Source: Candidatus Poribacteria bacterium
GTDB lineage: Bacteria > Poribacteria > WGA-4E > WGA-3G
Direction: 5' to 3'
Length of the DNA: 64,000 nt
Assembly (NCBI GenBank): GCA_965202725.1
Contig: OZ241845.1
Location: 1,346,172-1,410,171, forward strand
Shown here: positions 13,836 to 38,029 of the stretch, one piece after another
Layout of the letters: every line of letters starts with the position of its first letter
Position numbering within the stretch: the first letter of the stretch is position 1
Translations under genes and position numbers: made by a program
The notes under the pieces: generated by a model
What the model was told of the DNA's origin: nothing
What the model saw: the letters and a program-made list of their open reading frames with translations, nothing else
The model's database searches: none

Positions 13836-13982
13836 CTGCGTAATTCTAACGCCGGTTGGAAAATAAAGGTGTAGGTCGAGTAGATAGGTACCCCTTCAAC
13901 CTAACCCACATTCCCTACTAAAATGTGTCGCGTGTCGGAGCGTTTGCGCCCGGCGGCGCACGAGGTACCAAGCCGAATTACT

Positions 13983-14099
13983 CGTGTCTTGCGGGGCGGC
14001 TCCTGGAACAATAATACACAGAACGTTCGGGTCGCTAATCGCAACAACAATACGCCAACGAATACGAACAACAACAACGGTTTTCGTTGCGCGAAGACT
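13983..14099 (+). ncRNA. DGR template repeat (TR) within a probable structured DGR RNA (about 13925-14285)
   Basis: Reads RVLRGGSWNNNTQNVRVANRNNNTPTNTNNNNGFRCAKT, with 13 AAY codons and 36 adenines; differs from VR2 only at adenines. Confidence 0.95.
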
Positions 14100-14712
14100 C
14101 TTGTCCAAAAAGCATTTTGAGATTGCCAGAGTTGGTATGCCTCCGAGGTAGGCGAGTCATATCAAGCGTGCATCTATGAAGAGTCCAAGGCTTGGCACCT
14201 GTGTTCATCTCGCTGAGATGAGCCGAAGATACAATCCAGGGTGTGATGGCTGGTAGGTTTTACGACTCAAGGCTATCACACCCCTATTTCTCCCCTGCAA
14301 CACAGAAACGCCCACGACTTCTGCCATGCTAATAGCCGGAATTCTCTCTTTTTGCCTAGCGCCTGAAAATATTGAAATACCCTCAGCCTTCCAAAACACT
14401 TGACTTTAAATATCCTTTCCTGATAAAATACACGCAATAGATTTTGCATACCTCGGAAAGATTTTTCGTCTTTTTCCAAACCCCAGAGGGGGGTATACCT
14501 ATAGAATATGGCCTATGTGCACGATTGCACTCCCGGAGAATGCCATACGGAGAACCTTTATACCCTTGATTTTGATCCACCAACGCCGGGATCCTGACTC
14601 TGACAGGCTTTCACCCACATGACCGATAATCGACCGTACTCCGTAGGAGTGCTATGTCTATAAACAATTGGCAACTTGTGTTAAGAATAGAATAAAAATT
14701 GGAGGATATGGA

Positions 14713-16065
14713 TTGTTAAAAGTATCAAAATTTGGCGGGAGTTCTCTTGCCTCGGCGGAACAGGTGCGTCAAGTGTGTGACATCATCACTGCCGACCCGG
14801 AGCGCCGCCTCATTGTCGTCTCTGCCCCCGGGAAACGCTATAGCCAGGATATTAAAGTAACGGATCTGCTTATCGCTGCTGCCTCAGAACGCCTCACAGG
14901 AAAAATTGGTGCATCAGAATGCGCTGAAGTGATTGAACGTTATCGCAGCATCGCTTCAGGGTTAGGACTGCCAGTTGAAGTGATTGAACCGATTGCCCGG
15001 GATCTGACGGAACGTCTTGAAAAAAGCACTACCGATGCGAACCTCTATATGGATACAATGAAGGCAGGCGGCGAGGATAACTGCGCACGGCTCCTCGCGC
15101 AGGCGCTCCAAGCACGCGGTGTAGACGCACATTACGTTAGCCCGAAAGACGCGGGGTTAATCTTGTCTGATGAGCCCGGTAATGCACAAGTTTTGCCCGA
15201 AGCGTACAGCCGGCTACGCGCCCTGAACGAACGTCCGGGTATCATCATTTTCCCGGGTTTCTTCGGTTACTCCAAGCAAGGGAACATTGTCACTTTCTCG
15301 CGTGGCGGTTCAGACATCACAGGTGCTATTCTTGCCAGCGCTGTTCGAGCAGAGGTTTACGAAAATTTCACTGATGTCGATTCAGTGTTCGCAGCGAACC
15401 CGTCTATTGTTAAAGATCCTGCCCCGATTGCGGAGTTAACCTATCGTGAGATGCGAGAACTCTCTTATGCCGGGTTCTCCGTATTCCACGACGAAGCCCT
15501 GGAACCTGTCTATCGAGCACATGTGCCTGTTCACATCCGCAATACAAATAACCCGCAAGCGCAAGGCACACGCATTGTTACAAACCGGACCTCAGCGGAT
15601 ATGCCTGTCGTCGGTATTGCAGTAATGGATAACGTTTGTTGTATCTATCTGAGTAAATATCTAATGAACCGTCAAATCGGGTTTGGTCGGCGGCTGCTGC
15701 AGATTTTGGAGACCGAAGACATCTCTTTTGAACATGTGCCATCCGGCATAGACAACATGTCGGTTATCCTTCGCGAGGAAAACCTTTCTGCACAGAAGGA
15801 GGAAAGGGTTGTTGAACAGATTCGGCGGGTCCTCGCGCCTGAAGATGTCTTTGTAGAACGCAGGCTATCGCTTATCATGGTTGTTGGGGAAGGCATGCGC
15901 CACACTGTTGGTATCGCTTCGCGCGCCACACACGCCTTAGCCAGCGCACAGGTCAATATAGAAATGATTAATCAAGGTTCCAACGAAGTCAGTATGATGT
16001 TCGGCATAAAATCCGAAGATAGGAAGGCTGCTGTTCAAGCGCTCTATGCCGAATTTTTCACTTAA
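14713..16065 (+). CDS. lysC: Aspartate kinase with two ACT domains
   Basis: KVSKFGGSSLA, VVSAPGK, TFSRGGSDITG. TTG start after GGAGG. Confidence 0.92.
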   Translation: MLKVSKFGGSSLASAEQVRQVCDIITADPERRLIVVSAPGKRYSQDIKVTDLLIAAASERLTGKIGASECAEVIERYRSIASGLGLPVEVIEPIARDLTERLEKSTTDANLYMDTMKAGGEDNCARLLAQALQARGVDAHYVSPKDAGLILSDEPGNAQVLPEAYSRLRALNERPGIIIFPGFFGYSKQGNIVTFSRGGSDITGAILASAVRAEVYENFTDVDSVFAANPSIVKDPAPIAELTYREMRELSYAGFSVFHDEALEPVYRAHVPVHIRNTNNPQAQGTRIVTNRTSADMPVVGIAVMDNVCCIYLSKYLMNRQIGFGRRLLQILETEDISFEHVPSGIDNMSVILREENLSAQKEERVVEQIRRVLAPEDVFVERRLSLIMVVGEGMRHTVGIASRATHALASAQVNIEMINQGSNEVSMMFGIKSEDRKAAVQALYAEFFT

Positions 16066-16147
16066 AGGTTGCTGAACAGTATCTCATTTTCTGTATATTT
16101 TTGTTTTTTTCTTGACAAAAACGCTGAGAATCTGTTATCCTATCTCT

Positions 16148-16726
16148 ATGATGTATGTATCAGCGAGAAAAGCAAGTGCCCTTTTAGACTATACCCCCGA
16201 TCATTTACGGAGATTAGCGAATGCGGGCAAAATTGACACGATCCGCACGGGAGGCGGACATAGACGTTACAATGTTGAAAAATACATCCGTAACGCATCC
16301 GGTGCAATTACCCCTGTTTGCTATTGCAGGGTCTCCAGTGCCAAACAACGAGACGCTCTGGAACGCCAAGTCACCGCGATGCGGCGTATCTACCCCGATG
16401 CCGAAGTCATTAGAGATATTGGCAGCGGCCTCAACTTCAAAAGAAAAGGACTTAACGCCTGACTGGACAGGCTTTTGCAAGGTGCTCAGTTCCAAGTTGT
16501 TATTGCCCATCGGGATAGACTCGCCCGGTTCGGTATCGATCTTATACGATACCTCATTGAACAGAACGGTGGCGAACTCGTGGTTCTTGACAAAACAGCA
16601 CACAGTCCGGAAGAAGAACTCACCGCGGATCTTCTCGCCATCTTGCACGTCTTCAGTTGCAGACTGCACGGGCTCCGAAGCTACCGTGATGAAATCAAAG
16701 AAGATACGACTCTTACCGACGGCTGA
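16148..16726 (+). pseudogene. tnpA: IS607 TnpA interrupted by the same in-frame TGA (16460-16462)
   Basis: Same motifs and same stop position as copy 1. Confidence 0.85.
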
Positions 16727-17843
16727 GCAACGTCTGCAGTTGCGGCGATGGTTTGGCACCGCCCGCTTCACCTATAATCAAACTTTGCATCTGCTCAAGA
16801 CGACGGATACGCAAGCCAACTGGAAAGCCATCAAAACAGGTATCTTACATGACTTACCTGCTTGGGCGAAAGAAACGCCCTATCAAATCAAGTCTGTGGC
16901 TATCCGAGATGCTTGTATCGCCGTGAGGGAAGCGAAAAAGAAGGCGAAAGCAAAAGGAGAAAAGCAGTCGGTTTCCTTCAAATCCAAACGTCAACCTTCA
17001 GATAGCATTTTTATACCCAAGTCTGCCATAAAGCCTAATGGCGTTTATCACACGAAATTAGGGGATCTCGTCATGGCTGAGGCGCTGCCTGAGCACATCC
17101 GAGACTCCCGCCTGGTAAAAGACGGCGATAGCTATTATCTGTGTGTTTCCTATACTGTCGCAACCCCGAAGCGAAAGCCAAACGGACGTGTTGTGGCTTT
17201 AGACCCCGGCGTGAGAACATTCCTCACCTATTTCCATGAGCGTGGGTTCGGATGGCTTGGACATCACGCAATCAATAGAATTCAGAGGCTCTGTTTCCAT
17301 TTAGATGACTTACTGTCCCGTGCAGCCAAGGCTGCCCATCGCCAAAGCAAGCGAAATATGCGGAGAGCCGCAAAGCGAATGCGTAAACGGATACGCAATC
17401 TCATAGACGAACTCCATAAGAAAATCGCACGCTGGCTGGTAGATACCTTTGATATTCTCTTGCTACCGACTTTTGAAACTTCACAGATGACTTGTAAAGC
17501 CGAGCGGAAACTGAGAAAGAAGTCTGTTAGGCAGATGCTGACCTTGTCTCATTACCGGTTCAAGCAGTTTCTCAAGCACAAAGCAAAAGAAACAGGGGCT
17601 ATCGTCCTCGACGTTTGTGAAGCCTACACCTCAAAGACGGTGTCTTGGACGGGCGAGATCGTCAAAAATCTCGGTGGCAGGAAGACGATCAAAGATGCTT
17701 TCGGGCTATCTATGGACAGAGCCCTCAACGGCGCACGTGGGATATTCCTGCGTGCTTTGGGAGATAACCCCGGGTTGCTAAGCCTTAGCAACTTGCAAAC
17801 CATGCATACCGCGGAATACAACGTATTGCACGGAAATGTATAG
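16689..17843 (+). CDS. tnpB: IS607-associated TnpB, copy 2 (same DRALN motif)
   Basis: Near-identical to copy 1, with a 9-aa longer C-terminus. Confidence 0.9.
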   Translation: MKSKKIRLLPTAEQRLQLRRWFGTARFTYNQTLHLLKTTDTQANWKAIKTGILHDLPAWAKETPYQIKSVAIRDACIAVREAKKKAKAKGEKQSVSFKSKRQPSDSIFIPKSAIKPNGVYHTKLGDLVMAEALPEHIRDSRLVKDGDSYYLCVSYTVATPKRKPNGRVVALDPGVRTFLTYFHERGFGWLGHHAINRIQRLCFHLDDLLSRAAKAAHRQSKRNMRRAAKRMRKRIRNLIDELHKKIARWLVDTFDILLLPTFETSQMTCKAERKLRKKSVRQMLTLSHYRFKQFLKHKAKETGAIVLDVCEAYTSKTVSWTGEIVKNLGGRKTIKDAFGLSMDRALNGARGIFLRALGDNPGLLSLSNLQTMHTAEYNVLHGNV

Positions 17844-17866
17844 GTTCATATTATCGGAATACCCCT

Positions 17867-18706
17867 ATGGAAATCACCGTGCAACCTGAAGAATTGGCAG
17901 AAGGGAAACTTACAGACACACACGTTGAACAAGCCGTAAAGGCAATCCAGGTTGATGGTTACGTCATCTTAGAAAATGTCATCCGTCATGAACCCTTGGA
18001 CATTCTGCGTGAACGTATGGATGCCGATTCTCAGATCCTGATTAATGCAGAGAAATGGGGAGGAGCGGGTCGACTGAAAGGGCACCTTCAGCAAGGACCG
18101 CCCCCTTACGCACCCTACATCTTCAGAGACATTGTGGCGAATCCCTACGTTGTGCAAGTAACCAGGGAGCTTCTCGGTCCGGGGCTCTATAATAACTTTT
18201 ACAACGGGAATACGAATTGCCCGGGTAGCACAACACAACCGCTGCACCGAGACGGTGCTCACCTGTGGCCAGATCAAGAAATAGCACACCCGACAGTGGA
18301 GGTTGTCGTTAACATCTCACCGCAGGATACAACAGCGGAGAACGGGAGTGTTGAAATCTGGCCCGGTTCACATCTGGAGGTCAGTGGCAAACAAATAGCA
18401 GCAGCGGAAGAAGAGGCACGTCGGGAGATCTACCCGCCTATCCGTGGCAGTGCGAGGAAGGGGAGCGCGCTCATTCGGGATATGCGGCTCTGGCATCGAG
18501 GTGTTCCCAATCCGTCTGATAAGCCGCGCCACATGATAGCGATGATCCACCGCGTCGCTTGGCTCAGATCCTACCGCCGACTGAAGTATAATACTGGATG
18601 CGAAGCCGCCTTTGAAGACAGTGATCTCGACCCTAATGCTGATTTCTTTGATTTCGCCACACACAAAATAGAGGATTACGACTATCTGTTCAATCCGCAT
18701 TTTTGA
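17867..18706 (+). CDS. Phytanoyl-CoA dioxygenase (PhyH) family protein
   Basis: QPLHRD (HxD), ENGSVEIWPGSH, RLWHRG..N.S..PR. Confidence 0.88.
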   Translation: MEITVQPEELAEGKLTDTHVEQAVKAIQVDGYVILENVIRHEPLDILRERMDADSQILINAEKWGGAGRLKGHLQQGPPPYAPYIFRDIVANPYVVQVTRELLGPGLYNNFYNGNTNCPGSTTQPLHRDGAHLWPDQEIAHPTVEVVVNISPQDTTAENGSVEIWPGSHLEVSGKQIAAAEEEARREIYPPIRGSARKGSALIRDMRLWHRGVPNPSDKPRHMIAMIHRVAWLRSYRRLKYNTGCEAAFEDSDLDPNADFFDFATHKIEDYDYLFNPHF

Positions 18707-19563
18707 CGATTGCCACGGAGGCTCCTATGCGCACGCAAAACAATTGGCTCCCGGCGGAGCCTGACCTTGAAACCGTTTGTAAAACCTATAGCGATCCGAT
18801 TTATGCCCTCTCCCAAGCTGAAATGCCTGCTATTATTCTTCGGAATGCCTACTCACCGGAACACTGTAACGGACTCATTCATCGATTCACAAACATGGGT
18901 TTGATGCGTGACGAAGCCGATGGCAACGCTGTTGACAGACGCACCCGTATCGACATCGGCACGAGCCTCGGGAACCGTGGCAGCGATAAAGCGAAATTTT
19001 TAGCACATGCCGAAGCGACACATCACCTCTTTAAATTTTTATTCGATGGATTTGAGAATCCTGTCGAGTTGATTTATGACTCCCTTGACACGCTTTCACC
19101 CAGAAAAGAGGTGAAGGTAGCACGTGAACCCGACGGTTCGCGCTACGGGCCAGCGATCTTCCGCGTCCACTACGAAACCCATAGCTACAAACCACACATC
19201 GATCACGTCAAATACCGTGAGAATCGCACTGACTACCAAGTCTACCGTTTCGAGCATCAGTTTGCGGGTGTGCTGTGTGTCCAAAATGCAGATGAACATG
19301 GAAAAGGCACACAAGCTATCTTGCACCGATGTCTCTGGTCTGAGGAGATCCAACCGCATATTGTTGAAGAAACGTTTGCCAGGTACGCTGCTGAAAATGG
19401 AATAGAGAACTATCAGGTCGATCTTCAACAAGGCGACCTCTACTTTTTCAACACGCGTTGTATCCACGAAGTGCCACCCGTTCAAGGCACACGCGCCCGC
19501 ATCGTGTTGGCAGTATTTATAGGTTATTCTCCCGACGATGACGACATATTCGTTTGGGCGTAA
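18703..19563 (+). CDS. Putative 2OG-Fe(II) oxygenase
   Basis: PHID (HxD) and GDLYFFNTRCIHEVPPV...R. Start uncertain (TTG 18703 or ATG 18727). Confidence 0.7.
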   Translation: MTIATEAPMRTQNNWLPAEPDLETVCKTYSDPIYALSQAEMPAIILRNAYSPEHCNGLIHRFTNMGLMRDEADGNAVDRRTRIDIGTSLGNRGSDKAKFLAHAEATHHLFKFLFDGFENPVELIYDSLDTLSPRKEVKVAREPDGSRYGPAIFRVHYETHSYKPHIDHVKYRENRTDYQVYRFEHQFAGVLCVQNADEHGKGTQAILHRCLWSEEIQPHIVEETFARYAAENGIENYQVDLQQGDLYFFNTRCIHEVPPVQGTRARIVLAVFIGYSPDDDDIFVWA

Positions 19564-19742
19564 CCTATTCAAATCCTGAACATTTTTGTACATACCCTGC
19601 ACAATTCGCGGTAGTCTTAATGGTGTCGGCTTCCAGTGAATCGTAGGTGCGAGGCCATTTCGCCCCTATAGCCTTTTCCGCGTTTGACTTCCACGCGACA
19701 CCGTGATATACTAACGTTGGACTTTACCAATAGGAAGGAAAA

Positions 19743-20714
19743 ATGAGACATTTTAGAGACCAGAGACGTGTGTGCTGCAAGAGGTATTGTTTTTTGGCAT
19801 ATACGTTCATTGCAATTCTTACTCTCATATCTCTGCCCATAGCGGCCGATAGCACAGACATCCACGAAAACGCAGGCACCCGCGCCATGACTTTTCTCAA
19901 AATTGGGGTCGGGGCTGAGGCAATGAGTATGGGGGAATCACAAGTCGCTGCGGCCGATGACCTCTACGCCTCATACTGGAATCCTGCCGGACTGACAAAG
20001 CTCCAAAAGCCACAACTCGCGCTCATGCATAACGAGTGGTTCGCTGGAATCAATCACGAATTCATCGGGTTCGCACTCCCGCTTGGGGGTATTGGCACCG
20101 TTGGTTTCAGTTCAAGTTACCTGTCTTTCGGTGAGTTACAGGGACGCGACCGAGAGGGTAACGAGACGACGCTCTTCCGTCCTTACGATTTAGCCTTGAT
20201 TTTCTCGTATGCCCGCAGTTTCGGAGATAATCTCGCTTTTGGGACAAACGCGAAATTCTTACGCGAACAGATTGCTGACGCAGCGGGAACCGGTATCGCT
20301 TTTGATTTCGGTGTATTATACACCTTTCCCGGAATCCCGCTCGCTTTGGGCTTCAACGCACAGCATCTTGGACCGAGAGTCAAGTTCATTGAGGAGGCTT
20401 TTGGGCTGCCTGTTACTTTTAGGTTTGGGGGTGCCTACAAACTCTGGAACGACGCGTTCACCCTAACCACTGACATTATCCGGCCATCTGATAACGCTAT
20501 CGCGATAGGCATCGGTGCGGGTTATACCATCGGCAGTATCTTGCACCTCCGCACTGGCTATAACTACAAAATCGGTGGCAACGCTTTGGGAGCGATTTCT
20601 GGACTTGCTGGCGGTTTTGGACTGACGCTTCGGCAGTTCCACATCGATTACGCCCTCGTTCCCTTCGGTGTCCTCGGATTGACTCACCGCTTCTCGTTAG
20701 TCGCCAATTTTTAG
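19743..20714 (+). CDS. PorV/PorQ-family outer-membrane beta-barrel protein
   Basis: FLKIGVGA.AMSMGE, YWNPAGL and C-terminal IDYA..PFG.LG.THRFSL...F. Confidence 0.8.
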   Translation: MRHFRDQRRVCCKRYCFLAYTFIAILTLISLPIAADSTDIHENAGTRAMTFLKIGVGAEAMSMGESQVAAADDLYASYWNPAGLTKLQKPQLALMHNEWFAGINHEFIGFALPLGGIGTVGFSSSYLSFGELQGRDREGNETTLFRPYDLALIFSYARSFGDNLAFGTNAKFLREQIADAAGTGIAFDFGVLYTFPGIPLALGFNAQHLGPRVKFIEEAFGLPVTFRFGGAYKLWNDAFTLTTDIIRPSDNAIAIGIGAGYTIGSILHLRTGYNYKIGGNALGAISGLAGGFGLTLRQFHIDYALVPFGVLGLTHRFSLVANF

Positions 20715-21421: not shown

Positions 21422-21540
21422 AGTCGAAATCCTCCTTTTACGTTATTTTCCTAATATAAATTATAACATCTTTTGAGGCTAACCAACAAGAAAAATAAAT
21501 TCCCTACAGACGACTCATAACTCATAACTCATAAAAAGAC

Positions 21541-21626
21541 TTGACGAGTTAAGTGTGTTTAAGGTAGTATACATGTTTAAAGTCAAAAAAAAATATTTGA
21601 CATTTAGGGTTCAGATAGTGTATACT
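21541..21626 (+). promoter_or_regulatory. Two tandem sigma70-like promoters upstream of the long leader of the giant protein gene
   Basis: TTGACG-18-TAGTAT (21541-21570) and TTGACA-18-TATACT (21597-21626). Confidence 0.5.
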
Positions 21627-27165: not shown

Positions 27166-27248
27166 GGGTGTAGCGGCACGCAAGTGTCGCTACATGAACA
27201 GGTTCATTCAGGGATACACCCTATTTGAATTAACTTACCAACTACAAA

Positions 27249-29619: not shown

Positions 29620-29853
29620 ATACTTAACGGTTAGCCAGCAGTTAACTATGGTGAATGGGAAAAATGAATTCACATGTGTCTCCTCTCGCTGGCGAAGTTT
29701 CCGAACCTCGCGGGTACAGAGTGTCTAATTAATGCTAAGATCTACCATAAATGCCCCCATTATTTTACCTTGACACTGAGATAAATACCGTGTATCATAT
29801 ACTAAGACCTACGCAATTTCCTTACGCTAAATACAAAGAACGGAGCCAGATCA

Positions 29854-30276: not shown

Positions 30277-30321
30277 CGACCTCTGTCCATCTGAGAGGAC
30301 TTTGAAAGTTTTCAAGAAATT

Positions 30322-32337
30322 ATGAAAAAACACATTGTTATTTTACCATTTTTAGCCAGCCTCTGTTTGCTCTGCATCGGAGTGAATCCGGCTTTTTCAG
30401 TAGATTTCATTCGATTAGAACGCGAATTTGCAGGCAAAGGGACAACACAAGGACGATTCAGCAAGGACATCCATCTCGCCTTTGATAGACAGCATATTTA
30501 TGTCAGCGATACCGAGAATCGGCTTATCCAGAAGTTGTCAGCCACCGGAGAATTTCTGTTTCAATTCCCGGAAGTCCCAGAATCTCCAGAGACTGTCCTG
30601 CGAAAACCGGGGCACCTCGCGGTAGATAGCCTCGGAAATATCTACGTCACCGATGAAACTGTGCATCACATTGGTGAAAGCGCGGACCCGAAAGTTTACA
30701 TGTTCGCGCCGTGTGTCCACAAATTCAGCGCAACCGGTGAATTGTTAGACACCTATTTCGTTGATCCAGTGGATGTCCGGCCGAAAGTCGTCTTACCGAT
30801 AAGCCTCATCCTTGACGAAGAGGGGAAAACTGCTTTTGCGATTCAACCGAAAGGTTATAACAGATCCCTTCGCGTCACCCTCAATTCCGAAAATGAACTC
30901 TACGTTTTGGACGCTGAACGCGGACGGATCTATAAGTTCAGTGCGGATGGCGAGAACCTGCTTGCTTTCGGTCGGTACGGTTCAGGTGACGGTGAATTTG
31001 ATACGGATGCGTCAGACATTGCGATTGACGCACGCGGAAATGTCCTTATCGCTGACACTGGAAATCACAGGATCGTGAAATTTGATTCAGCGGGTAAATT
31101 TGTCGGTAACTTCGGCAGAAAAGGACGCGGCAACGGGGAATTCACACAACCGATAGCCCTCGCTACGCTGCCTACAGGTGAGATTTTAGTTAAAGATGCG
31201 AGTCAATTCCGCAGGAAAATTGGGGGGCTACCAGAAATTATTGCCCTCTCACCGACATTGACACAGCTGACGGAGATGCCCCCCGGACAAGCGGACCTCG
31301 CGGATACCATCGCGAACGCGACTCGACCCCAGTACGGCGCCTTTGCGCAGAGTAAAGCCGCTGCTGCCGATACTGCTGCCTTGAACCGACGCGTGCGACT
31401 GCTGGAAGAGGCGGAATACAACCGTTATTATGCGAACGAAACGGATGATGAAGGCAAGGCAGAACTCGCTGAAGAACTCAAGCGAACGGACATTCGTCTC
31501 ACCCTCTTCCATAACGTTATCTCACGTATCCAAAAGTTTGACAATAATGGCCGGTATTTGGGGCGTATCATTTATGAAACTGACCAACTCAGCGAAGATA
31601 AGCACGATCAGACCTTCTTAGCTCTTGACAGCTCCGGGCATCTCTATTTGCGGGATGCCAGTGATTTTACGATCGCGCAGTATTCGGTTACAGGTTTTAC
31701 TGTGAAACCCTCTCACATGAATGGATTTTACACGACTCGCGCTGCGATCCTAAATAACAACTACTTGGAAGACTACGAAGACATTGATGTCTCAACAGAT
31801 GTCCAAGATGAACTGCACCAACTGGAACTGAAAAACATGTTCGGGTGGACATATAGTCTCTCTGAACGGTGGCATCTGACCTTCCTCGATGAACTGACCT
31901 ACGGCGAGCAAGATGAACGTTATGTCACTCCCGCGAAGGTAGAAGATAGTTACGATTTCGAGACACAGGCGTTAGAGAACGCATTCGCAGCGAATCTGAA
32001 ATTCATCGCCAACCCAAATCCGTACCGCTATAAGGAGTTAAACCTGTCTGTTGGACGTGTTGATGGCACGTCTGACCTGACGCAGGATGCACTTTTCCCT
32101 GAACTCAACAAACAGCACAGAAAAGATACGGGTGATGCAAGTTCCACGGTTATTGAACTCAATTGGGATATATGGTCACGCGGAAACCTATGGCTCCGGT
32201 ACGCTGATCTGAATCCTGCCGAAACGAGTCGAAATTTCGTCCGACGATTCTACGATGTCTCTGGGGACCTCTACGAAGTCTTTGGGAGTCGCAACGAGGC
32301 CCGGCAGTTTATGGGTGAGTTAACTATAAAGTTTTGA
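30322..32337 (+). CDS. NHL-repeat beta-propeller protein, exported
   Basis: Repeated GxGxGEF..P..IAID..GN..IADTGNHRI.KF. Confidence 0.85.
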   Translation: MKKHIVILPFLASLCLLCIGVNPAFSVDFIRLEREFAGKGTTQGRFSKDIHLAFDRQHIYVSDTENRLIQKLSATGEFLFQFPEVPESPETVLRKPGHLAVDSLGNIYVTDETVHHIGESADPKVYMFAPCVHKFSATGELLDTYFVDPVDVRPKVVLPISLILDEEGKTAFAIQPKGYNRSLRVTLNSENELYVLDAERGRIYKFSADGENLLAFGRYGSGDGEFDTDASDIAIDARGNVLIADTGNHRIVKFDSAGKFVGNFGRKGRGNGEFTQPIALATLPTGEILVKDASQFRRKIGGLPEIIALSPTLTQLTEMPPGQADLADTIANATRPQYGAFAQSKAAAADTAALNRRVRLLEEAEYNRYYANETDDEGKAELAEELKRTDIRLTLFHNVISRIQKFDNNGRYLGRIIYETDQLSEDKHDQTFLALDSSGHLYLRDASDFTIAQYSVTGFTVKPSHMNGFYTTRAAILNNNYLEDYEDIDVSTDVQDELHQLELKNMFGWTYSLSERWHLTFLDELTYGEQDERYVTPAKVEDSYDFETQALENAFAANLKFIANPNPYRYKELNLSVGRVDGTSDLTQDALFPELNKQHRKDTGDASSTVIELNWDIWSRGNLWLRYADLNPAETSRNFVRRFYDVSGDLYEVFGSRNEARQFMGELTIKF

Positions 32338-32350
32338 GGTTGTTGTTAAT

Positions 32351-33313
32351 ATGGAATTTCGTGGGCTTTATCCTGAAGAATTAGAGGCCTGGTTGGATCA
32401 TGTTACGTCTGTCTTTACAGGGGGGCGCAAATACTTTTCTAATCACTGGCACAACGATCCGTGGCGAGATGCAGAAGGCATCCGAATTGCCCTCGACGAG
32501 GGTACTATTGTCAGTACAGTCCGCGTCTTTATTCGGAAGATGTATTTGCACGGCGAACCGATACCCGTTGGTGGCATTGGAGAGGTCAGCACGCGCCCGG
32601 AATACCAGCGCCGCGGGCTTGCCACACAACTCCTTAAAGACGCTATCAGGTTCATGGAAGATCGTGAGATAGCTATGTCCTCGCTCCACGGAAGCCAACG
32701 TATCTATTCAATTGAAGGGTGGAGGAAGGTGCCACGCTACTACGCGAGACAAGCTTTCAATGCCGAAAAGCGATCAGAGTGGGCAATCCGTCCAGCCAAT
32801 TTTGACAATGCAGCCGAAGTCAAACGAATCGCTGAACGCTATGATGGGTATGCGCGTAAATTTAACGGCACTTTTGTCAGAGATAAAATAGAATATTGGA
32901 CGAAGTGGGTGCAGACGGAGTCTCCAAACGCTTGGGTTGCTGAACGTGATGGGAGTATTGAAGGGTATGTCTCCGTCGTCCAGCGCGACGATCAACTGGA
33001 TGTTAAGGAGTTTATTGCTTCAGAGACACCTTTTGAAAAAGACAACGGCAAAGAACTCTTTGAAAGCATGCTCTCTAACCTCATCGCGCAGATGGATAGA
33101 GAATCCATTGAGGTGGTTTATCCTGCCCCGATTGCCGACGGTTTTAACGCCCCTAAGATTGAAGAACATACAAGTGCGATGTATCGCATCAATCAACCGA
33201 CTGTGCTTTCTGATTCATGCAATGCAATTCCCGACCTATTACACAACCAACACCAGTCTTTGGCACAGGGCATCAAGTCGCATCACGTCTTTTGGTATAC
33301 TGATGGATATTAA
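32351..33313 (+). CDS. GNAT acetyltransferase (Eis-like)
   Basis: GGIGEVSTRPEYQRRGLATQLL acetyl-CoA motif. Confidence 0.85.
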   Translation: MEFRGLYPEELEAWLDHVTSVFTGGRKYFSNHWHNDPWRDAEGIRIALDEGTIVSTVRVFIRKMYLHGEPIPVGGIGEVSTRPEYQRRGLATQLLKDAIRFMEDREIAMSSLHGSQRIYSIEGWRKVPRYYARQAFNAEKRSEWAIRPANFDNAAEVKRIAERYDGYARKFNGTFVRDKIEYWTKWVQTESPNAWVAERDGSIEGYVSVVQRDDQLDVKEFIASETPFEKDNGKELFESMLSNLIAQMDRESIEVVYPAPIADGFNAPKIEEHTSAMYRINQPTVLSDSCNAIPDLLHNQHQSLAQGIKSHHVFWYTDGY

Positions 33314-33423
33314 CAGCGCACCTATATGATTTAGGGTTCATATCAAATCGTTTTATTCGATTATCCTTCGATCTCTTAATTCACCGCAAAAAATTTGACT
33401 TCTAGCTCGATGGGGATATAGAC

Positions 33424-34422
33424 ATGGCAAAACTACGCGTAGGTGTTATCGGTTGTAGTGGTATTGGCACGACGCATGTATCAGGTTTAATGGACCTGCC
33501 GAACGTTGAATTAGCCGCCGGCTGCGACTTTGTTCAAAGCAGACTGGATGCCTTCAAAGAAAAATATCAGGACACCTGGGACAACATTTCTCTGTATACT
33601 AACCATCAAGAGATGCTCGCAGCTGAGAATTTAGACATCGTGACAGTGGCGACCTCTGACCATCGGCATGCCGATCTGGTCGTTGATGCCGCAAACGCTG
33701 GCGTGAAAGGTATCTTCTGTGAAAAACCGATGGCAACGAATATCGCAGATGCGGACAGAATGATGGAGGCCACAGCGCGCAACGGAACTATCCTATCGAT
33801 TGATCACACTCGCCGATGGCAGCCCCTGTGGCGGCATACGAAAGAAGTAATCGTCGGTGGTGGACGTATCGGGGATGTTCAGTATGTTATTGGTACGTTG
33901 AGTGGTGGGCGTGCCATGCTCTTCCGTAATGGCACACATCTTATTGATGCGATCTGTTACTTCGCCGAGTCTGATCCTGAGTGGGTCTCTGCTGAATTGG
34001 AGGATGGCTACGAAGACTATGACGCGTATAAAGGTGATGGTGGACACGTCCCAGCAACGGAACCGTCAGCACACGGTTATATCCACTTCGAAAACGGCGT
34101 GCGCGGGTATTACGCTGGCGGTCCAAAGACGACCCTGCCCGGGTTCCGTGTGGAGATTGTCGGTACCAACGGCTACATTCTCATGAGTGACCGCGGGGCA
34201 ACACTCTATCAAGATGATAGTATTGAGACGATCGAGGCACCCACATGGGACATCTCGGGTATCCCTGCTGGACCACGAGAGTTGGTAGGGCTCATTACAG
34301 AAGGCGGAGAACCTGTTTCGTCTGGAAGTGAAGGCTACAAGGTTGTCCAAATTATCATTGGCTTCCTGACATCGCAGCAGCGGGACAATGGAAAGGTCAA
34401 ACTGCCTTTGGCTGCGGATTAG
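33424..34422 (+). CDS. Gfo/Idh/MocA oxidoreductase
   Basis: VGVIGCSGIG and IFCEKPMA. Confidence 0.9.
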   Translation: MAKLRVGVIGCSGIGTTHVSGLMDLPNVELAAGCDFVQSRLDAFKEKYQDTWDNISLYTNHQEMLAAENLDIVTVATSDHRHADLVVDAANAGVKGIFCEKPMATNIADADRMMEATARNGTILSIDHTRRWQPLWRHTKEVIVGGGRIGDVQYVIGTLSGGRAMLFRNGTHLIDAICYFAESDPEWVSAELEDGYEDYDAYKGDGGHVPATEPSAHGYIHFENGVRGYYAGGPKTTLPGFRVEIVGTNGYILMSDRGATLYQDDSIETIEAPTWDISGIPAGPRELVGLITEGGEPVSSGSEGYKVVQIIIGFLTSQQRDNGKVKLPLAAD

Positions 34423-34447
34423 CTTTATCCTTTTACTTCAACACTCA

Positions 34448-34960
34448 ATGGGAAAAAGCATGAAAGGCACTTTCAACACTGAAACGTTCAAAAAGATTTT
34501 CCTCTCCTATTTGAGCATGTTGGGTTTAACTTGGGGAGTCGTCGTTTTTTCAGGTTTCGGGCTTCCTTTCATATTGGAGACAATACCGCATTCCCGCCTT
34601 GCTACTGGTAATACTGTATCCGGTGTTATTGCAATCGGTTTGGTGGCAATAGGCTCACTGTCTATAGGTACAGTTTCCAACGGAGTGCTTTCAGTGGGAA
34701 TTTTTGCTGTTGGTAGCACTGCGTGTGGTGTTGTGGCTATCGGAGGAGGAGCAGCCGTCGGGGTTATCGCAATTGGTACAAATGCTATAGGCGTTGTCTC
34801 TATCGGATACAACGCTATGGGTATCTACGCGCTATCTTATAAAGACCAAAAAAACAGAAGCAGATATCTGTTATCTCCGGAACGCCAAGATGCAAAAGCG
34901 GTACGGTTGTTTACACGGTGGATGCCAAAATTGAAAAACGCGTTTGCAACAGAGCGTTAA
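34448..34960 (+). CDS. Membrane protein with Gly-rich G(V/I)(I/V)AIG repeats
   Basis: Repeated GxxAIG motifs; function unknown. Confidence 0.65.
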   Translation: MGKSMKGTFNTETFKKIFLSYLSMLGLTWGVVVFSGFGLPFILETIPHSRLATGNTVSGVIAIGLVAIGSLSIGTVSNGVLSVGIFAVGSTACGVVAIGGGAAVGVIAIGTNAIGVVSIGYNAMGIYALSYKDQKNRSRYLLSPERQDAKAVRLFTRWMPKLKNAFATER

Positions 34961-36063
34961 TCGGCTTTTAAAACAATTGCATTTTCAGGTGTCCACTGCA
35001 GATAGACCCTATCGCCGCGTTGAAAACGATGTGTATTTTGCTCGCCTGTATTCTGCCGGTGCGCAATAAGTGGGGTTGGGTAGTCCGTCTGTACGGTGTA
35101 TTGTAGCGTCGTGCCGAGATAACTTTCGTCTTGAATCACGCCGTGTAAGAGATTCGTGGTATCAGAGGTTGCGGCCGCCATCACGTTAATGCGCTCCGGA
35201 CGAACAGCGACGGTGACAGGCGCGTTCAACGGAATACCGCTGGTCGGTGTGCAGACGATTTTAGCGGGCGACTCTGGCATCAACGCGATCTCATTTTTAC
35301 TGACAAGTGTTCCTTCAAGAAAGTTAGAAGTACCGATAAAGTCTGCAACAAAGCGACTCTGTGGTGAGTCGTAGATTTCAGAGGGGGTTCCTACCTGAAG
35401 CACTTTTCCCTCGTTCATCACTGCAATCCGATCGGACAGTGCTAATGCTTCACCTTGGTCGTGTGTCACATAAACAAACGTAATACCGACCTTGCGTTGT
35501 AAGGTTTTTAGCTCCAACTGCATCTGTTTTCGGAGTTTTAAGTCGAGGGCCGAGAGGGGTTCATCTAAGAGCAGGATGGTGGGTTCGTTAATTAACGCGC
35601 GTGCAAGGGCGACCCGTTGTCTCTCTCCACCGGAGAGTTCACTCGGTTTTCGGTTGTCGTATCCGGACAACCGAATTAACGCCAACGCGCGTTCAACCGC
35701 CGCCGCTATTTCTGATTTAGGAGCCTTCTGCATCTGTAGCCCGAATGCGATATTTTGCGCGACGGTTTTATGTGGAAACAAAGCGTAGTTCTGAAAAACG
35801 GTGTTAACGGGACGCCGATAGGGTGGCGTTTCTGCCATTATTGCGCCGTTGATGTGGACCTCTCCTGTCGTAGGATACACAAACCCGCCTATGATGCGCA
35901 ACGTTGTTGTTTTCCCGCATCCACTCGGTCCGAGCAGAGAAAAGAACTCACCGCCTGCTACTTGCAGCGACACATTGTCAACTGCAACCGTTTCCCCGAA
36001 CTGTTTTGTTACAGATGTGAGCGTGATTTGTCCTACAGACATGTCCGAGTTGTCCTCTGACAA
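34957..36063 (-). CDS. potA: Spermidine/putrescine ABC transporter ATP-binding subunit
   Basis: GPSGCGKTT, RPVNTVFQNYALFPH, LSGGERQRVALARAL and a TOBE domain. Confidence 0.88.
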   Translation of the reverse strand: MSEDNSDMSVGQITLTSVTKQFGETVAVDNVSLQVAGGEFFSLLGPSGCGKTTTLRIIGGFVYPTTGEVHINGAIMAETPPYRRPVNTVFQNYALFPHKTVAQNIAFGLQMQKAPKSEIAAAVERALALIRLSGYDNRKPSELSGGERQRVALARALINEPTILLLDEPLSALDLKLRKQMQLELKTLQRKVGITFVYVTHDQGEALALSDRIAVMNEGKVLQVGTPSEIYDSPQSRFVADFIGTSNFLEGTLVSKNEIALMPESPAKIVCTPTSGIPLNAPVTVAVRPERINVMAAATSDTTNLLHGVIQDESYLGTTLQYTVQTDYPTPLIAHRQNTGEQNTHRFQRGDRVYLQWTPENAIVLKAD

Positions 36064-36170
36064 ATCACGATGTGTTCTTCGTGCATCGTTGTAGAGGTTT
36101 CACCTGCGATGTTAGAGGGACTGTTTTTCTTCGGCATTCGTTTGTTTGGTATATTCCTGATAATAGTTTC

Positions 36171-36497
36171 TTAAAGAGGTCGTTTGTTCAAACTGCTTAG
36201 CGTTTCGTCTAAAGTAGATAGACAGATTGGTGTTGACTTAGCAGTGGCTATTAATCGGACGAGGGGATTAATGTCACATCCAACGCTGTGCATGCCGAAG
36301 AGAGATGCCTCGACCAGAGAGGTACCGGTGCCACAATACGGATCAAGGAGCCATCCACCCTCTACACCGTACGCTTTAAGAAGTTTCCGTGCGATTTGGG
36401 GGATCATCATTGCCGGATAGGCGTGAAAGCAGTGGGTGTACTCTTTGGTATCAGACGCTCGAAAGTCCCACGATTCATCTTCGTATTTCAGAGTTAA
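36171..36497 (-). pseudogene. Truncated DNA methyltransferase (N-terminal fragment)
   Basis: THCFHAYPAMMIPQIA and LLDPYCGTGTSLVEA...GCDINP, then a stop after about 110 codons. Confidence 0.75.
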
Positions 36498-36765
36498 ACC
36501 TCCAGATCACAGCCAACGAAATTCCGATTTTTTAAGAGTGCTGCCTCCATGACGGAAAAGGAGCCTGCAGCCGGATCAATTACATAGTCGCCTTCATTGC
36601 TCACAGCAGCAATGAGCTCAGCCTGTAAACCGATAGGTTTCTGATGCGGATGATCTTGTGTTTTCGTGCGTTCAAGCCAGACATCGCGGATGTTATGGAT
36701 TTTCCAAACCCCCTTGGCCCTTCTTGGGTATTTCTGTAGAACGACTGCCATGGGCTTTCCATGAT
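36494..36765 (-). pseudogene. DNA methyltransferase (N4/N6 type) C-terminal fragment
   Basis: HPHQKPIGL...VIDPAAGSFS...NRNFVGCDL; the catalytic DPPY/SPPY half is missing. Confidence 0.75.
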
Positions 36766-36928
36766 TGCCATCGCAAAAATGCTGCAAGCCTCTCCTTCTA
36801 CCATCCTTGAGTGGATACGCACCTTCGCAGGAGAACACGCAAAACCCCACACCCCAACAGATAAGCACCGGCGTGCTTGAACTGGATGAGATGTAGCACT
36901 ATCTGAAAAAAAAAAACGTTTGAATCAG

Positions 36929-36952
36929 GCACAGCCTAACAGGCTATGCTAC
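36929..36952. repeat. GTAG-type REP palindrome downstream of DGR target 2
   Basis: GCACAGCCTAACAGGCTATGCTAC, the same family as at 10460 and 13506. Confidence 0.85.
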
Positions 36953-37021
36953 AAAAGAGCCTAACAAGAAACCAGGCTAAAAATAGTAATTTCCAGTTAA
37001 GTAAAACCAATTTTTGGGTCG

Positions 37022-37048
37022 CCCCACATCTGCAACGCAGATGTGGGG
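37022..37048 (-). promoter_or_regulatory. Hairpin/cruciform downstream of VR2
   Basis: On the gene strand CCCCACATCTGC-gtt-GCAGATGTGGGG, a 12-bp stem. Confidence 0.75.
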
Positions 37049-37072
37049 TATAAGGTGTTAAGTTGTTAAGCG

Positions 37073-38029
37073 TTAAGGGGTTACAGCAGCCCTCGCGCAA
37101 CGAAAACCGTAGAGGTAGAACGTAAGCGAAGGCGGAGTGATGGTGCGATTAGCGACCCGAACGTCCTGCGTATAAGGGTGCCAGGAGCCGCCCCGCAAGA
37201 CACGAGAAGACTTAACAAGTAAGTAGTCATTTAATATTAAGTCCACCTCCGCTATGTTATTCACATCGCTGAGGGGATTTCGAGCAGGAGAATGAGAATA
37301 GAAATCCGCATCATACGCATCTAAACACCACTCAAACGCATTACCCGCCATATCGTATAAACCATAACCATTCGCAGGATAGGAACCTACGACCGTCGTA
37401 GCGCCTACATTCCCATAGTTCGCACGATCCGCTGAGATCTCATTACCCCACGGATACCTCATACCTACCAAACCCCCACGCGCAGCCTTCTCCCACTCCG
37501 CCTCCGAAGGCAAACGCTTACCAGCCCACTTGGAATACGCTACCGCAGCATACCACGATACATTCACAACAGGATGATCCCCTTTACCCGCAGGATAGGT
37601 GGTGCCAGTCCAATCAAGTAGGTACCATCCATAATGGTATTTCCTATCAATACGATCCTTCTGCCACTCTGGATTCGCCAACACAAATCTTTGGTAAGCC
37701 GCATTCGTCACTTCATGCGTATCCATGTAGAACGCATCCACAAACACAGTGTGAACAGGCTGTTCAGCCGGAAAAGCTTCCGGATCATTGCTACCCATCT
37801 CAAACGCACCCGCAGGAATCAGCACCATGTCACGACCATCTGTGGGAGTTGTTATACGTTTCGGTAGCCTTTGGTTATCGCCCACCAGATCTTCTGTGAC
37901 AGGATCGGTCAGCTGGGGAACATCATCTTCTACCTCCTCCTCCGCTTTCGGACAGCCGATGAACATCGGACAGCACACCAACAGAACTAGCAACATCGCA
38001 CCCCTATAGAGAAAACTTTTTTTATTCAT
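37073..38029 (-). CDS. Exported FGE-sulfatase (CLec-fold) putative lipoprotein; DGR target 2
   Basis: Close paralogue of 12454-13413, with a FIGC lipobox-like motif and a C-terminal VR. Confidence 0.92.
   Translation of the reverse strand: MNKKSFLYRGAMLLVLLVCCPMFIGCPKAEEEVEDDVPQLTDPVTEDLVGDNQRLPKRITTPTDGRDMVLIPAGAFEMGSNDPEAFPAEQPVHTVFVDAFYMDTHEVTNAAYQRFVLANPEWQKDRIDRKYHYGWYLLDWTGTTYPAGKGDHPVVNVSWYAAVAYSKWAGKRLPSEAEWEKAARGGLVGMRYPWGNEISADRANYGNVGATTVVGSYPANGYGLYDMAGNAFEWCLDAYDADFYSHSPARNPLSDVNNIAEVDLILNDYLLVKSSRVLRGGSWHPYTQDVRVANRTITPPSLTFYLYGFRCARAAVTP
37088..37204 (-). repeat. DGR variable region VR2
   Basis: Gap-free 117-nt match to TR 13983-14099: 22 mismatches, all opposite TR adenines. 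Confidence 0.95.

What the first reader, a model, noticed from the sequence alone, without database searches (positions are those of the whole stretch)
13925..37204. Stand-alone DGR template repeat, with no RT or avd, matching a target 23 kb away on the opposite strand
Seen: TR 13983-14099 aligns without gaps to the 3' end of the FGE-sulfatase gene at 37088-37204 (minus). There are 22 mismatches in 117 nt, all opposite TR adenines and mostly in AAY codons (NNN to HPY, NNN to TIT, NNNN to FYLY). Two of the 22 (aag/agg, act/gct) are shared by both VRs and may be fixed IMH/IMH* differences. The TR is flanked by REP repeats and aspartate kinase, and no RT or Avd ORF is visible in 64 kb. Known: adenine-specific mutagenic retrohoming in DGRs (Bordetella BPP-1, Legionella, Treponema) normally uses a TR next to avd and RT. 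Inference: TR RNA, RT and targets are physically separate and work in trans, forming a distributed diversification network for exported binding proteins.
Basis: partly seen in the sequence, partly recalled or inferred. Interest (0 to 1): 0.93.

Follow-up and report, generated by a model that had tools for sequence, protein, structure and literature searches.

The report
DGR template that lost its enzymes
A mutagenic-retroelement template and the seven scattered genes it rewrote survive in a bacterial chromosome from which the reverse transcriptase and its helper gene have been deleted, so this protein-diversifying system is most likely freshly switched off rather than built to work without them.

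Summary
Window 13983-14099 is a DGR template repeat (TR). VR2 (37204-37088, minus strand) differs from it at 22 of 117 positions, all TR adenines (chance about 1e-14). Genome-wide, seven FGE-sulfatase/C-type-lectin genes carry VRs with 0-2 non-adenine mismatches to this TR, although their flanks are only 83-94% alike. The TR has therefore rewritten seven dispersed targets.

The 4.6-Mb single-contig genome has no DGR reverse transcriptase and no Avd. Its only RT lies beside Cas1 and a CRISPR array.

Six congeners carry target-avd-RT-leader-TR-structured 3' domain. Here avd-RT is missing without trace and a REP array lies in its place. Other congeners show further stages of decay. This is a DGR that lost its enzymes, not a designed stand-alone TR.

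The VRs are as clean as in RT-bearing relatives. Either the loss was recent or the enzymes come from outside the chromosome. One 249-nt, low-depth RT contig in one sequencing run keeps the second option open. Present activity could not be tested.

The parts
12454..13413 (+). Former cis target gene: 319-aa FGE-sulfatase (C-type-lectin fold) protein with a lipoprotein-like N-terminus
   Evidence: Pfam PF03781, E 6e-63, residues 66-314. ORF and N-terminus. It holds the position of the target gene upstream of avd in relative G021.
13282..13398 (+). VR1, a degenerate variable repeat
   Evidence: 11 non-adenine and 28 adenine mismatches to the TR. Non-adenine identity to other VRs is 83-88%, the same as flank identity. 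It does not fit any relative's TR better: 10-16 mismatches against five relatives' TRs, 22 and 36 against the other two.
13438..13465 (+). Hairpin about 40 nt after VR1 (stem CCCCTACATCTG / CAGATGTAGGG)
   Evidence: The sequence is conserved after 8 of 9 own VRs and after VRs of G021, G051 and G070. Coordinates.
13414..13912 (.). Intergenic stretch with the REP array, lying where avd and RT lie in relatives
   Evidence: Four REP units at 13587(-), 13693, 13741 and 13803. No Avd or RT remnant by blastn or tblastn. In G021, avd (1389-1730) and RT (1706-2791) lie between target and TR.
13913..13982 (+). Leader: about 70 nt before the TR, homologous to the RT-TR intergenic region of intact cassettes
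   Evidence: Homology to G022 starts at 13913 and to the others at 13955-13961. Alignment of own sequence plus seven cassettes.
13983..14099 (+). Template repeat (TR): 36 adenines, 34 of them in codon positions 1-2. Mutagenised zone is positions 25-95. The 3' end (96-117) is IMH*-like.
   Evidence: The 3' half is nearly identical to TRs of RT-bearing congeners.
14100..14292 (+). Structured 3' domain of the TR RNA (three helical domains, the last a terminator-like hairpin followed by a T-run)
   Evidence: Directly follows the TR in all 7 relative cassettes examined. Consensus fold has 48 pairs, 94.4% of cells paired. 14 pairs show changes on both sides, against 6.8 +/- 1.6 in shuffles (0 of 500 reach it) and 2-6 in slid controls. 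No Rfam family.
37073..38029 (-). Remote target gene: 318-aa FGE-sulfatase protein with a lipoprotein-like N-terminus
   Evidence: Pfam PF03781, E 4e-60. N-terminus.
37088..37204 (-). VR2, a clean variable repeat
   Evidence: 0 non-adenine and 22 adenine mismatches to the TR.
37022..37048 (-). Hairpin about 40 nt after VR2 (CCCCACATCTG-CGTTG-CAGATGTGGGG)

Best explanation
This is the surviving non-coding half of a genuine diversity-generating retroelement. The ancestral cassette, still intact in six species of the same genus, reads: target gene (VR) - avd - RT - about 70-nt leader - TR - about 175-nt structured 3' domain with terminator.

In this genome, avd and RT have been removed without leaving a remnant, and an array of the genome's REP units now lies between the old cis target (VR1) and the leader. 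The RNA module (leader, TR, 3' domain) is intact.

While the enzymes were present, TR RNA was copied with adenine-specific errors. The cDNA replaced the last roughly 95 coding nucleotides of at least seven FGE-sulfatase/C-type-lectin genes spread over the chromosome, VR2 in this window among them. Each of these has the same IMH-like 3' boundary and the same downstream hairpin.

Because the chromosome now encodes neither a DGR RT nor Avd, the seven VRs are most likely frozen in their last state. This makes it a very recent relic.

Shown here: the TR/VR relation, homing after the paralogs diverged, absence of RT and Avd from the assembly, the architecture in relatives, and the conserved RNA fold.

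Inferred: deletion rather than relocation, how recent it was, and present inactivity.
For: (1) Adenine-only mismatches, 22 of 22. Over seven VRs, 148 of 252 adenine cells are changed (G 56, T 52, C 40), and 34 of 36 adenines are in codon positions 1-2.

(2) Homing after paralog divergence. Among the seven clean VRs, the 300 nt upstream are 83-94% identical, but the 81 non-adenine VR sites are 95-100% identical. VR1 and the VR at genome 867789 show 83-88% at those sites.

(3) The seven VRs fit this genome's TR (0, 0, 0, 0, 1, 2, 2 non-adenine mismatches) and not the TRs of other species (8-16 or more).

(4) No DGR RT. Pfam RVT_1 hits one gene only. tblastn with two congener RTs and a profile of six congener RTs against 38,816 six-frame ORFs find only that same gene. 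It lies next to Cas1 and a 37-nt-repeat CRISPR array and scores best with the group II intron RT model.

(5) No Avd. NF033474's best score is 27.6 bits against a cut-off of 80. A profile of seven congener Avds gives a best E of 0.009.

(6) The canonical cassette target-avd-RT-TR-3' domain is seen in G021, G022 and G011. A full-length RT occurs in 6 of 64 other genus genomes and an RT fragment in a seventh. The TR was found only in those seven and in this genome.

(7) No avd or RT debris in the own intergenic stretch.

(8) Decay is common in the genus. G051 keeps avd, only the last 75 RT residues, a TR with 27 adenines, and a cis VR with 14 non-adenine mismatches. Stand-alone 3' domains lie beside Avd or RT fragments in G058, G071 and G015. 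This genome has a second target-REP-3' domain locus that lacks the TR.

(9) Published precedent: passages read in PMC10907252 say that MITE-like repeat arrays replaced the RT gene at degenerate DGR loci.
Against: The VRs look as fresh as those of genomes with an intact RT. Non-adenine mismatches in relatives are: G021 0; G011 0; G046 1, 4, 23; G070 3, 5, 2, 2, 2, 7. Here they are 0, 0, 0, 0, 1, 2, 2. The sequences alone therefore do not show that homing has stopped.

The whole RNA module is intact: the leader, the TR with all 36 adenines, the folded 3' domain, the IMH-like ends and the hairpins. All nine target ORFs are open.

One run (X1) holds a 249-nt contig at depth 2.2 that lies on the RT gene of the G021 cassette. 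In the same run the contig carrying this genome's TR has depth 1259. The low-depth contig has 27 differences in 201 aligned letters and is not the allele of any of the six species representatives.

VR variation between strains or within a population could not be measured.
Confidence: 0.6

Rival explanations
1. The system is still running in trans. The chromosomal TR RNA module is kept because RT and Avd are supplied from outside the assembled chromosome. The source could be a rare subpopulation that retains avd-RT at this locus, an unassembled or transient replicon, or an incoming mobile element or phage of the same DGR lineage. The seven VRs would then continue to be rewritten.
For: The VRs are as clean as in RT-bearing congeners. 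The RNA module, IMH-like ends, hairpins and all target ORFs are intact.

A DGR-clade RT contig occurs in run X1 at about 1/570 of the depth of the TR contig, and it is distinct from all six species representatives.

Passages read in PMC10907252 report that variants with intact RT coexist with degraded variants inside single aggregates, and that incomplete loci are diversified in trans. PMC5758913 (passage read) states that avd, TR and brt expressed from a plasmid work in trans.
Against: No RT or Avd in a single-contig genome whose marker completeness (96%) equals that of the other closed genomes of the genus.

The one RT contig is 249 nt at depth 2.2 in one run, so it may be contamination by a congener.

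The genus shows plain DGR decay repeatedly, which makes loss the default expectation.

No cell can use an RT that sits in a different cell, so a rare RT-bearing minority would diversify only its own VRs.
Confidence: 0.3
2. The only RT of the genome, the Cas1-linked CRISPR-associated RT at genome 1,860,596-1,862,095, moonlights on the TR RNA and performs the mutagenic homing without Avd.
For: It is the only reverse transcriptase found. It aligns to congener DGR RTs at 26-33% identity over the RT core.
Against: Its motif reads QGSPLSP and YADD, the group-II-intron type, where the congener DGR RTs read IGNLTSQ and Y(M/V)DDF. The class assignment of these motifs is recalled, not tested here.

Its best NCBIfam match is the group II intron RT/maturase, 261.8 bits.

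It sits in an RT-Cas1-CRISPR array module.

No Avd is present. In every congener with a TR, a dedicated avd and a full or partial DGR RT lie next to it.
Confidence: 0.03
3. No retroelement is involved. The TR-like stretch is a decayed pseudogene fragment of an FGE-sulfatase paralog, and the similarity among VRs is ordinary gene conversion.
For: The TR is homologous to the 3' end of the paralog family, and many paralogs exist.
Against: All 22 mismatches fall at adenines, P about 1e-14. The same holds for seven VRs with a near-even A-to-G/T/C spectrum.

The TR is AAY-rich and lies in the exact position of the TR behind avd-RT in six congeners.
Confidence: 0.01

Closest known systems
Intact DGR cassettes of the same genus (handles G021, G055, G046, G011, G022, G070)
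   Same: The same leader, a TR 85-91% identical, the same structured 3' domain, and the same target family. The IMH-like A-to-G pair at TR positions 113 and 115 is the same in G021, and the downstream hairpin is of the same type.
   Different: They encode Avd (NF033474 at 118 bits) and a 361-aa RT with IGNLTSQ between the target and the leader. This genome has a REP array there and no such genes anywhere.
Degenerate DGR loci of Thiohalocapsa PB-PSB1 (PMC10907252; passages read)
   Same: Key DGR parts are replaced by MITE-like repeat arrays. [quoted passage not shown] Incomplete loci are scattered in one genome. Structural variants with an intact RT coexist with degraded ones.
   Different: According to the passage read, that genome keeps one complete locus per DGR class, which can serve the incomplete loci in trans. 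Here no complete locus and no DGR RT is left in the assembly.
DGRs with remote targets: Treponema and lineage-4 DGRs (PMC5758913), cyanobacterial DGRs (PMC7517822). Passages read.
   Same: One TR serves several non-adjacent FGE-sulfatase/C-type-lectin targets more than 100 kb away. Seven non-adjacent targets is the maximum quoted there, for Treponema. Here there are seven clean VRs, of which six are more than 100 kb away.
   Different: Those surveys start from the RT gene, so every case listed has one. An RT-only remnant (Anabaena sp. 90) is mentioned, which is the mirror image of this case.
Bordetella phage BPP-1 DGR (recalled, not fetched here; mentioned in PMC5758913 and PMC7517822)
   Same: Adenine-specific TR-to-VR information transfer, an IMH/IMH*-type 3' boundary, a hairpin downstream of the VR, a C-type-lectin-fold target, and a structured RNA segment 3' of the TR.
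   Different: From recall, the gene order in BPP-1 is target-avd-TR-RT. In this genus it is target-avd-RT-TR, and the RNA ends in its own terminator. Here there are no enzymes at all.

Membership tests
Diversity-generating retroelement (DGR) | TR/VR pair whose differences are confined to TR adenines | tested here: met
   22 of 22 mismatches for VR2. Seven VRs have 0-2 non-adenine and 18-23 adenine mismatches.
Diversity-generating retroelement (DGR) | DGR-clade reverse transcriptase encoded in the genome | tested here: not met
   RVT_1 search, tblastn and a genus RT profile find only the Cas1-linked RT. That RT is of group-II-like type.
Diversity-generating retroelement (DGR) | Accessory protein Avd (NCBIfam NF033474) | tested here: not met
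   Best 27.6 bits against a cut-off of 80. The genus Avd profile gives a best E of 0.009. The hits are generic 23S-rRNA-IVP four-helix-bundle proteins.
Diversity-generating retroelement (DGR) | VR at the 3' end of a gene for a C-type-lectin/FGE-sulfatase (or Ig) fold protein | tested here: met
   Pfam FGE-sulfatase, E 4e-60 and 6e-63. In all nine targets the VR starts 129 nt before the stop codon.
Diversity-generating retroelement (DGR) | IMH/IMH*-type fixed differences at the 3' end of VR/TR, and a hairpin downstream of the VR | tested here: met
   G at TR positions 113 and 115 in 9 of 9 own VRs and in the G021 VR. The hairpin is present after 8 of 9 own VRs. Presence only; function was not tested.
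Diversity-generating retroelement (DGR) | Homology and synteny with a complete DGR cassette | tested here: met
   Leader-TR-3' domain is 76-87% identical to the region behind avd-RT in seven congener cassettes.
Diversity-generating retroelement (DGR) | Ongoing diversification (adenine-site polymorphism of the VR in a population) | not testable with these tools
Diversity-generating retroelement (DGR) | TR transcribed as a non-coding RNA | not testable with these tools
   No RNA run was listed for this organism. The promoter scan is not above shuffles.
CRISPR-associated reverse transcriptase (for the genome's only RT) | RT gene adjacent to cas1 and a CRISPR array | tested here: met
   RT at L046 8594-10009(-), a Cas1-like ORF at 7385-8377(-), and repeat arrays at 2886-6583 with a 37-nt repeat. 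Cas1 identity was judged by eye from the translation and not scored against a family.

The most novel reading that the evidence does not exclude
The chromosomal leader-TR-3' domain RNA gene is a maintained, functional 'template only' locus. RT and Avd are a dispensable, polymorphic or mobile accessory present in only a small fraction of cells or on a transient element, as hinted by the distinct low-depth RT contig in run X1. Diversification of seven surface proteins would then be switched on and off at the population level by gain and loss of a 1.6-kb enzyme module, while the template and all targets stay ready.
Probability: 0.15. Interest if true: 0.75.

Novelty: new member of a known kind. 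Interest (0 to 1): 0.4.

Why it matters
DGR surveys start from the RT gene, so genomes like this one are invisible to them. It has a pristine template and seven freshly rewritten targets but no enzyme.

It offers a naturally 'disarmed' DGR for several questions. How fast do VRs and the TR drift once homing stops? Is loss of the enzyme module a recurrent way to freeze a favourable set of variants? Can a template-plus-targets set be re-armed by a cognate avd-RT? The last can be tested by adding a congener's avd-RT.

The genus also provides a graded series: intact, RT-truncated, TR-less and debris-only. It further provides a conserved, covarying 3' RNA domain of the DGR RNA that is not in Rfam.

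If the rival is true, with enzymes supplied from a rare variant or a mobile element, it would show population-level on/off control of targeted hypermutation.

Tried and rejected
1. Metagenome scan for the 24-nt constant 5' part of the TR/VR. It returned two contigs (L033, L034), neither with any blastn similarity to this genome at E 1e-10. They are unrelated organisms and no help.

2. Read laying of runs X1, X2, X3 and X5 (four runs, three studies) on the G021 cassette L035:900-3400 at 80% likeness. Apart from the one 249-nt contig in X1, nothing was laid on avd and RT. An RT less than 80% like G021's would also be missed.

3. In the same call, contigs of 365-375 nt in all four runs carry this genome's TR with identical differences from G021. 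Only 30 letters of their upstream parts are shown. That these contigs bridge the RT-less junction is therefore my inference from their length, not something I saw.

4. The look-up of sequencing runs: no RNA holder listed, so expression of the TR RNA could not be examined.

The listed proteins at 71-80% identity are paralogs on the 4,605,424-bp contig that is this genome. The nearest proteins on other contigs are 70% identical or less over 79-86% of the query, apart from one 216-aa partial protein at 75% over 68%. No strain variants were available.

6. Rfam at E <= 1 on window 13400-14700. The only hit is a plant miRNA family at 32 bits against a gathering score of 139, inside the REP array. 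Rejected as chance. No family covers the leader, TR or 3' domain.

7. Avd candidates at genome 3,077,663-3,078,408. These are two tandem 23S-rRNA-IVP four-helix-bundle genes, below the Avd cut-off. Rejected as Avd.

8. Promoter and terminator scan of 13400-14700. It found 2 promoter-like sites against 2.2 expected in shuffles, so it is not informative. By eye, TTCAAC-18-TAAAAT lies at 13895-13924, at the junction before the leader. This is a guess only.

9. Looked for avd or RT debris in both own loci. None found.

10. Asked whether VR1 or the VR at genome 867789 fit another species' TR better. They do not.

11. Literature. Searches found no paper using 'RT-less DGR', 'orphan template repeat', 'degenerate DGR', 'incomplete DGR' or 'DGR remnant' as phrases. 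I read only passages (find mode) of PMC7517822, PMC5758913, PMC10907252 and PMC8144416. Their supplements, which list individual DGRs and could hold this genus, were not seen.

13. In one search my script scored locus L060 at the neighbouring repeat (the same place as L052) instead of the intended match. That G070 place is left out of the baseline.

Full report
OBSERVATION. Window 13983-14099 (+) and 37204-37088 (-) align without gaps. Of 117 positions, 22 differ, and every difference lies opposite one of the 36 adenines of the plus-strand copy. The chance that 22 random positions all fall on those 36 sites is about 1e-14. The adenine-rich copy reads RVLRGGSW NNN TQN VRVANR NNN TPTNT NNNN GFRCAKT. 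It is not part of a long ORF. The other copy is the 3' end of a 318-aa ORF with a full-length FGE-sulfatase (C-type-lectin fold) match. VR1 is at window 13282-13398, in the FGE-sulfatase gene 12454-13413.

THE TR HAS REWRITTEN SEVEN DISPERSED GENES. The window lies at 1,346,172-1,410,171 of a single 4,605,424-bp contig without N. I scanned the genome for ungapped matches that tolerate differences at TR adenines. This found seven VRs with 0, 0, 0, 0, 1, 2 and 2 non-adenine mismatches and 18-23 adenine mismatches. Their start coordinates as listed are genome 475069, 613234, 717484, 1383375 (VR2), 2598002, 2884454 and 4503077. It also found two degenerate VRs with 10-11 non-adenine mismatches, at 867789 and at 1359453 (VR1).

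All nine lie 129 nt before the stop codon of an open FGE-sulfatase-type ORF. Among the seven clean VRs, the 300 nt upstream are only 83-94% identical between paralogs, whereas the 81 non-adenine VR sites are 95-100% identical. The two degenerate VRs show 83-88% there, no better than their flanks. The TR sequence was therefore copied into seven targets after the paralogs diverged.

The seven fit this genome's TR and not those of other species, which give 8-16 or more non-adenine mismatches. Homing thus happened with the present, lineage-specific TR. Over the seven VRs, 148 of 252 adenine cells are changed (G 56, T 52, C 40), and 34 of 36 adenines sit in codon positions 1-2. Changes span TR positions 25-95. 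Positions 113 and 115 are G in all nine VRs and position 112 never changes, which marks an IMH/IMH*-like boundary. A hairpin (CCCCACATCTG, 5-nt loop, CAGATGTGGGG) follows 8 of 9 VRs at about 40 nt.

NO ENZYMES IN THE GENOME. Pfam RVT_1 hits one gene only, at 1,860,683-1,861,948. tblastn with two congener DGR RTs and two Avds finds the same RT gene at 26-33% identity and nothing else. So does a profile search with six congener RTs and seven Avds against 38,816 six-frame ORFs. The best Avd-like hit has E 0.009. NCBIfam's Avd model NF033474 reaches 27.6 bits against a cut-off of 80. The hits are two tandem generic four-helix-bundle (23S-rRNA-IVP) genes.

The lone RT carries QGSPLSP and YADD, scores best with the group II intron RT model (261.8 bits), is followed by a Cas1-like gene, and lies next to CRISPR arrays with a 37-nt repeat. 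It is a CRISPR-associated RT, not a DGR RT.

WHAT THE LOCUS LOOKED LIKE BEFORE. In the same genus, a 361-aa RT with IGNLTSQ and Y(M/V)DDF is present full-length in 6 of 64 other genomes (G021, G055, G046, G011, G022, and G070 twice) and as a C-terminal fragment in G051. The preceding 115-aa protein passes the Avd model at 118 bits. In G021 the whole cassette lies on one contig: target gene (to 1138), avd (1389-1730), RT (1706-2791), TR (from 2998), then a conserved non-coding stretch. The TR was found only in those seven genomes and in this one.

Homology between this window and the cassettes starts at 13913-13961, about 70 nt before the TR, and ends at 14257-14292. Upstream of that point this genome has, instead of avd-RT, about 500 nt containing the VR1 hairpin and four copies of a 20-nt REP unit that has 240 copies genome-wide. 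There is no trace of avd or RT there. The stand-alone TR is therefore what is left after avd-RT was removed from target-avd-RT-leader-TR-3' domain.

THE 3' DOMAIN. The roughly 175 nt after the TR (window about 14117-14292) are conserved in all cassettes. They fold into three helical domains, the last a long hairpin followed by a T-run. The fold has 48 pairs with 94.4% of cells paired. 14 pairs show changes on both sides, against 6.8 +/- 1.6 in shuffles (0 of 500 reach it) and 2-6 in slid controls. Rfam has no family for it. By position it corresponds to the spacer RNA segment 3' of the TR that primes cDNA synthesis in the Bordetella phage DGR. That correspondence is recalled, not tested.

This domain also occurs without a TR. 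Within this genome it lies at 3,352,467-3,352,756, behind another FGE-sulfatase gene and a homologous REP stretch. In other genomes it lies beside short Avd or RT fragments in G058, G071 and G015. No such fragments were seen in G003, G042 and G047.

DECAY SERIES. G051 keeps avd and only the last 75 RT residues. Its TR has 27 adenines instead of 34-37, and its cis VR has 14 non-adenine mismatches. That is what an old relic looks like.

In RT-bearing genomes, VRs show these non-adenine mismatches: G021 0; G011 0; G046 1, 4 and 23; G070 3, 5, 2, 2, 2 and 7. One G070 place was mis-scored and dropped. With 0, 0, 0, 0, 1, 2 and 2, this genome's seven VRs cannot be told apart from those of working systems. 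Either the enzymes were lost very recently or homing still goes on.

SEQUENCING RUNS. Five runs from three studies hold 71-91% of the sampled words of window 12400-16100. None is on record as RNA. In all four, a 365-375-nt contig carries this genome's TR and 3' domain with identical differences from G021, at depths 1259, 152, 97 and 5.8. A contig of the TR-less second copy is listed for X1, X2 and X3.

One further contig is notable. It is in X1 only, 249 nt long at depth 2.2, and lies on RT positions 2428-2628 with 27 differences in 201 letters. It shares only 9-13 of its 19 listed substitutions with any of the six species' RT genes, and each of those genes has 13-38 further differences from G021 there. 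It is therefore a distinct allele of the same RT clade. Possible sources are a rare RT-bearing variant of this organism or trace contamination by an unsampled congener. I cannot tell which.

Strain-level VR variation could not be measured.

COMPARISON WITH WHAT IS KNOWN. The following come from passages read.
- Remote targets and multi-target DGRs are documented. PMC5758913 reports ten DGRs with 29 targets more than 100 kb away and a maximum of seven non-adjacent targets, in Treponema.
- PMC7517822 reports cyanobacterial remote variable proteins and an RT-only remnant.
- Trans action of plasmid-borne avd-TR-brt is cited in PMC5758913.
[quoted passage not shown] By the passage read, that genome keeps a complete locus of each class.

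What is particular here is that no complete locus is left at all while seven targets are still pristine. My phrase searches found no paper naming such a case. The supplements of the surveys were not seen.

VERDICT. The feature is real and is a DGR by descent and by its sequence signatures. It fails two defining features of a working DGR, the RT and Avd. My confidences for the explanations are:
- A recently disarmed DGR with frozen VRs: 0.6.
- Enzymes supplied from outside the assembled chromosome: 0.3.
- The CRISPR-linked RT as a substitute: 0.03.
- No retroelement at all: 0.01.

Novelty: a new member of a known kind, namely decayed or incomplete DGR loci. Interest is moderate at 0.4. It is a clean natural case of enzyme loss with template and targets intact, it comes with a graded decay series in the genus, and it reveals an uncurated structured RNA domain. 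The reader's idea of a designed RT-free trans network is not supported.

Noticed in passing
window 14117-14292; genome 3,352,467-3,352,756 (L015 6468-6757); L023, L024, L025, L008, L026, L027: The structured 3' domain of the DGR RNA also stands alone, without a TR, in this genome and in at least six other genomes of the genus. Three of those (G003, G042, G047) have no Avd or RT debris nearby. Between the two own copies the domain is 96.6% identical over 148 nt, while the upstream target gene and REP stretch are 88% alike. This suggests constraint or gene conversion. The domain is not in Rfam.
   Followed up: partly
hairpins after the VRs, e.g. window 37022-37048 (-) and 13438-13465 (+): The stem is the same, but the loop reads CGTTG after 2 of the 8 hairpin-bearing VRs (genome 1383375 and 4503077). 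After the other 6 it reads the reverse complement, CAACG. This is what an inversion of a palindromic hairpin would leave.
   Followed up: no
L052 (G070:C4:496289-496400) and L036 about 4288-4404 (G051): In the second cassette of G070 and in the RT-truncated cassette of G051, the repeat in the TR position itself carries adenine-to-N changes. Compared with the other G070 TR, 15 adenines are changed. G051 has 27 adenines instead of 34-37. It looks as if a mutagenised copy had overwritten the template.
   Followed up: no
genome 1,852,000-1,870,000 (L046): An RT-Cas1 adaptation module with several CRISPR arrays (37-nt repeat GTTTCAATTCCCTTCGAGCGGGAAAGTCTATTCAAAG). It is interleaved with REP arrays and a perfect 93-nt tandem repeat, 4.3 copies, at L046 10430-10830.
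   Followed up: partly
window about 14436-14580: A dispersed repeat of about 100-135 nt, between the TR module and the aspartate kinase gene. It matches many places in most genomes of the genus at 72-93% identity. It is MITE-like and separate from the 20-nt REP unit.
   Followed up: no
window 36494-36868 (-): A 124-aa ORF just downstream of the VR2 gene matches only positions 138-212 of 221 of the Pfam N6_N4 DNA methylase model. It is probably a gene fragment.
   Followed up: no
genome 3,077,663-3,078,408 (L029): Two tandem 23S-rRNA-IVP four-helix-bundle genes. The second matches the model in two pieces (3-68 and 67-105) in different frames, so it seems frameshifted.
   Followed up: no
genome 2,597,871-2,599,754 (L043): One target is a 627-aa protein with two FGE-sulfatase-type repeats. 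Only the C-terminal one carries a clean VR. An internal VR-like stretch at 2,598,850-2,598,962 is 72% like the TR.
   Followed up: no
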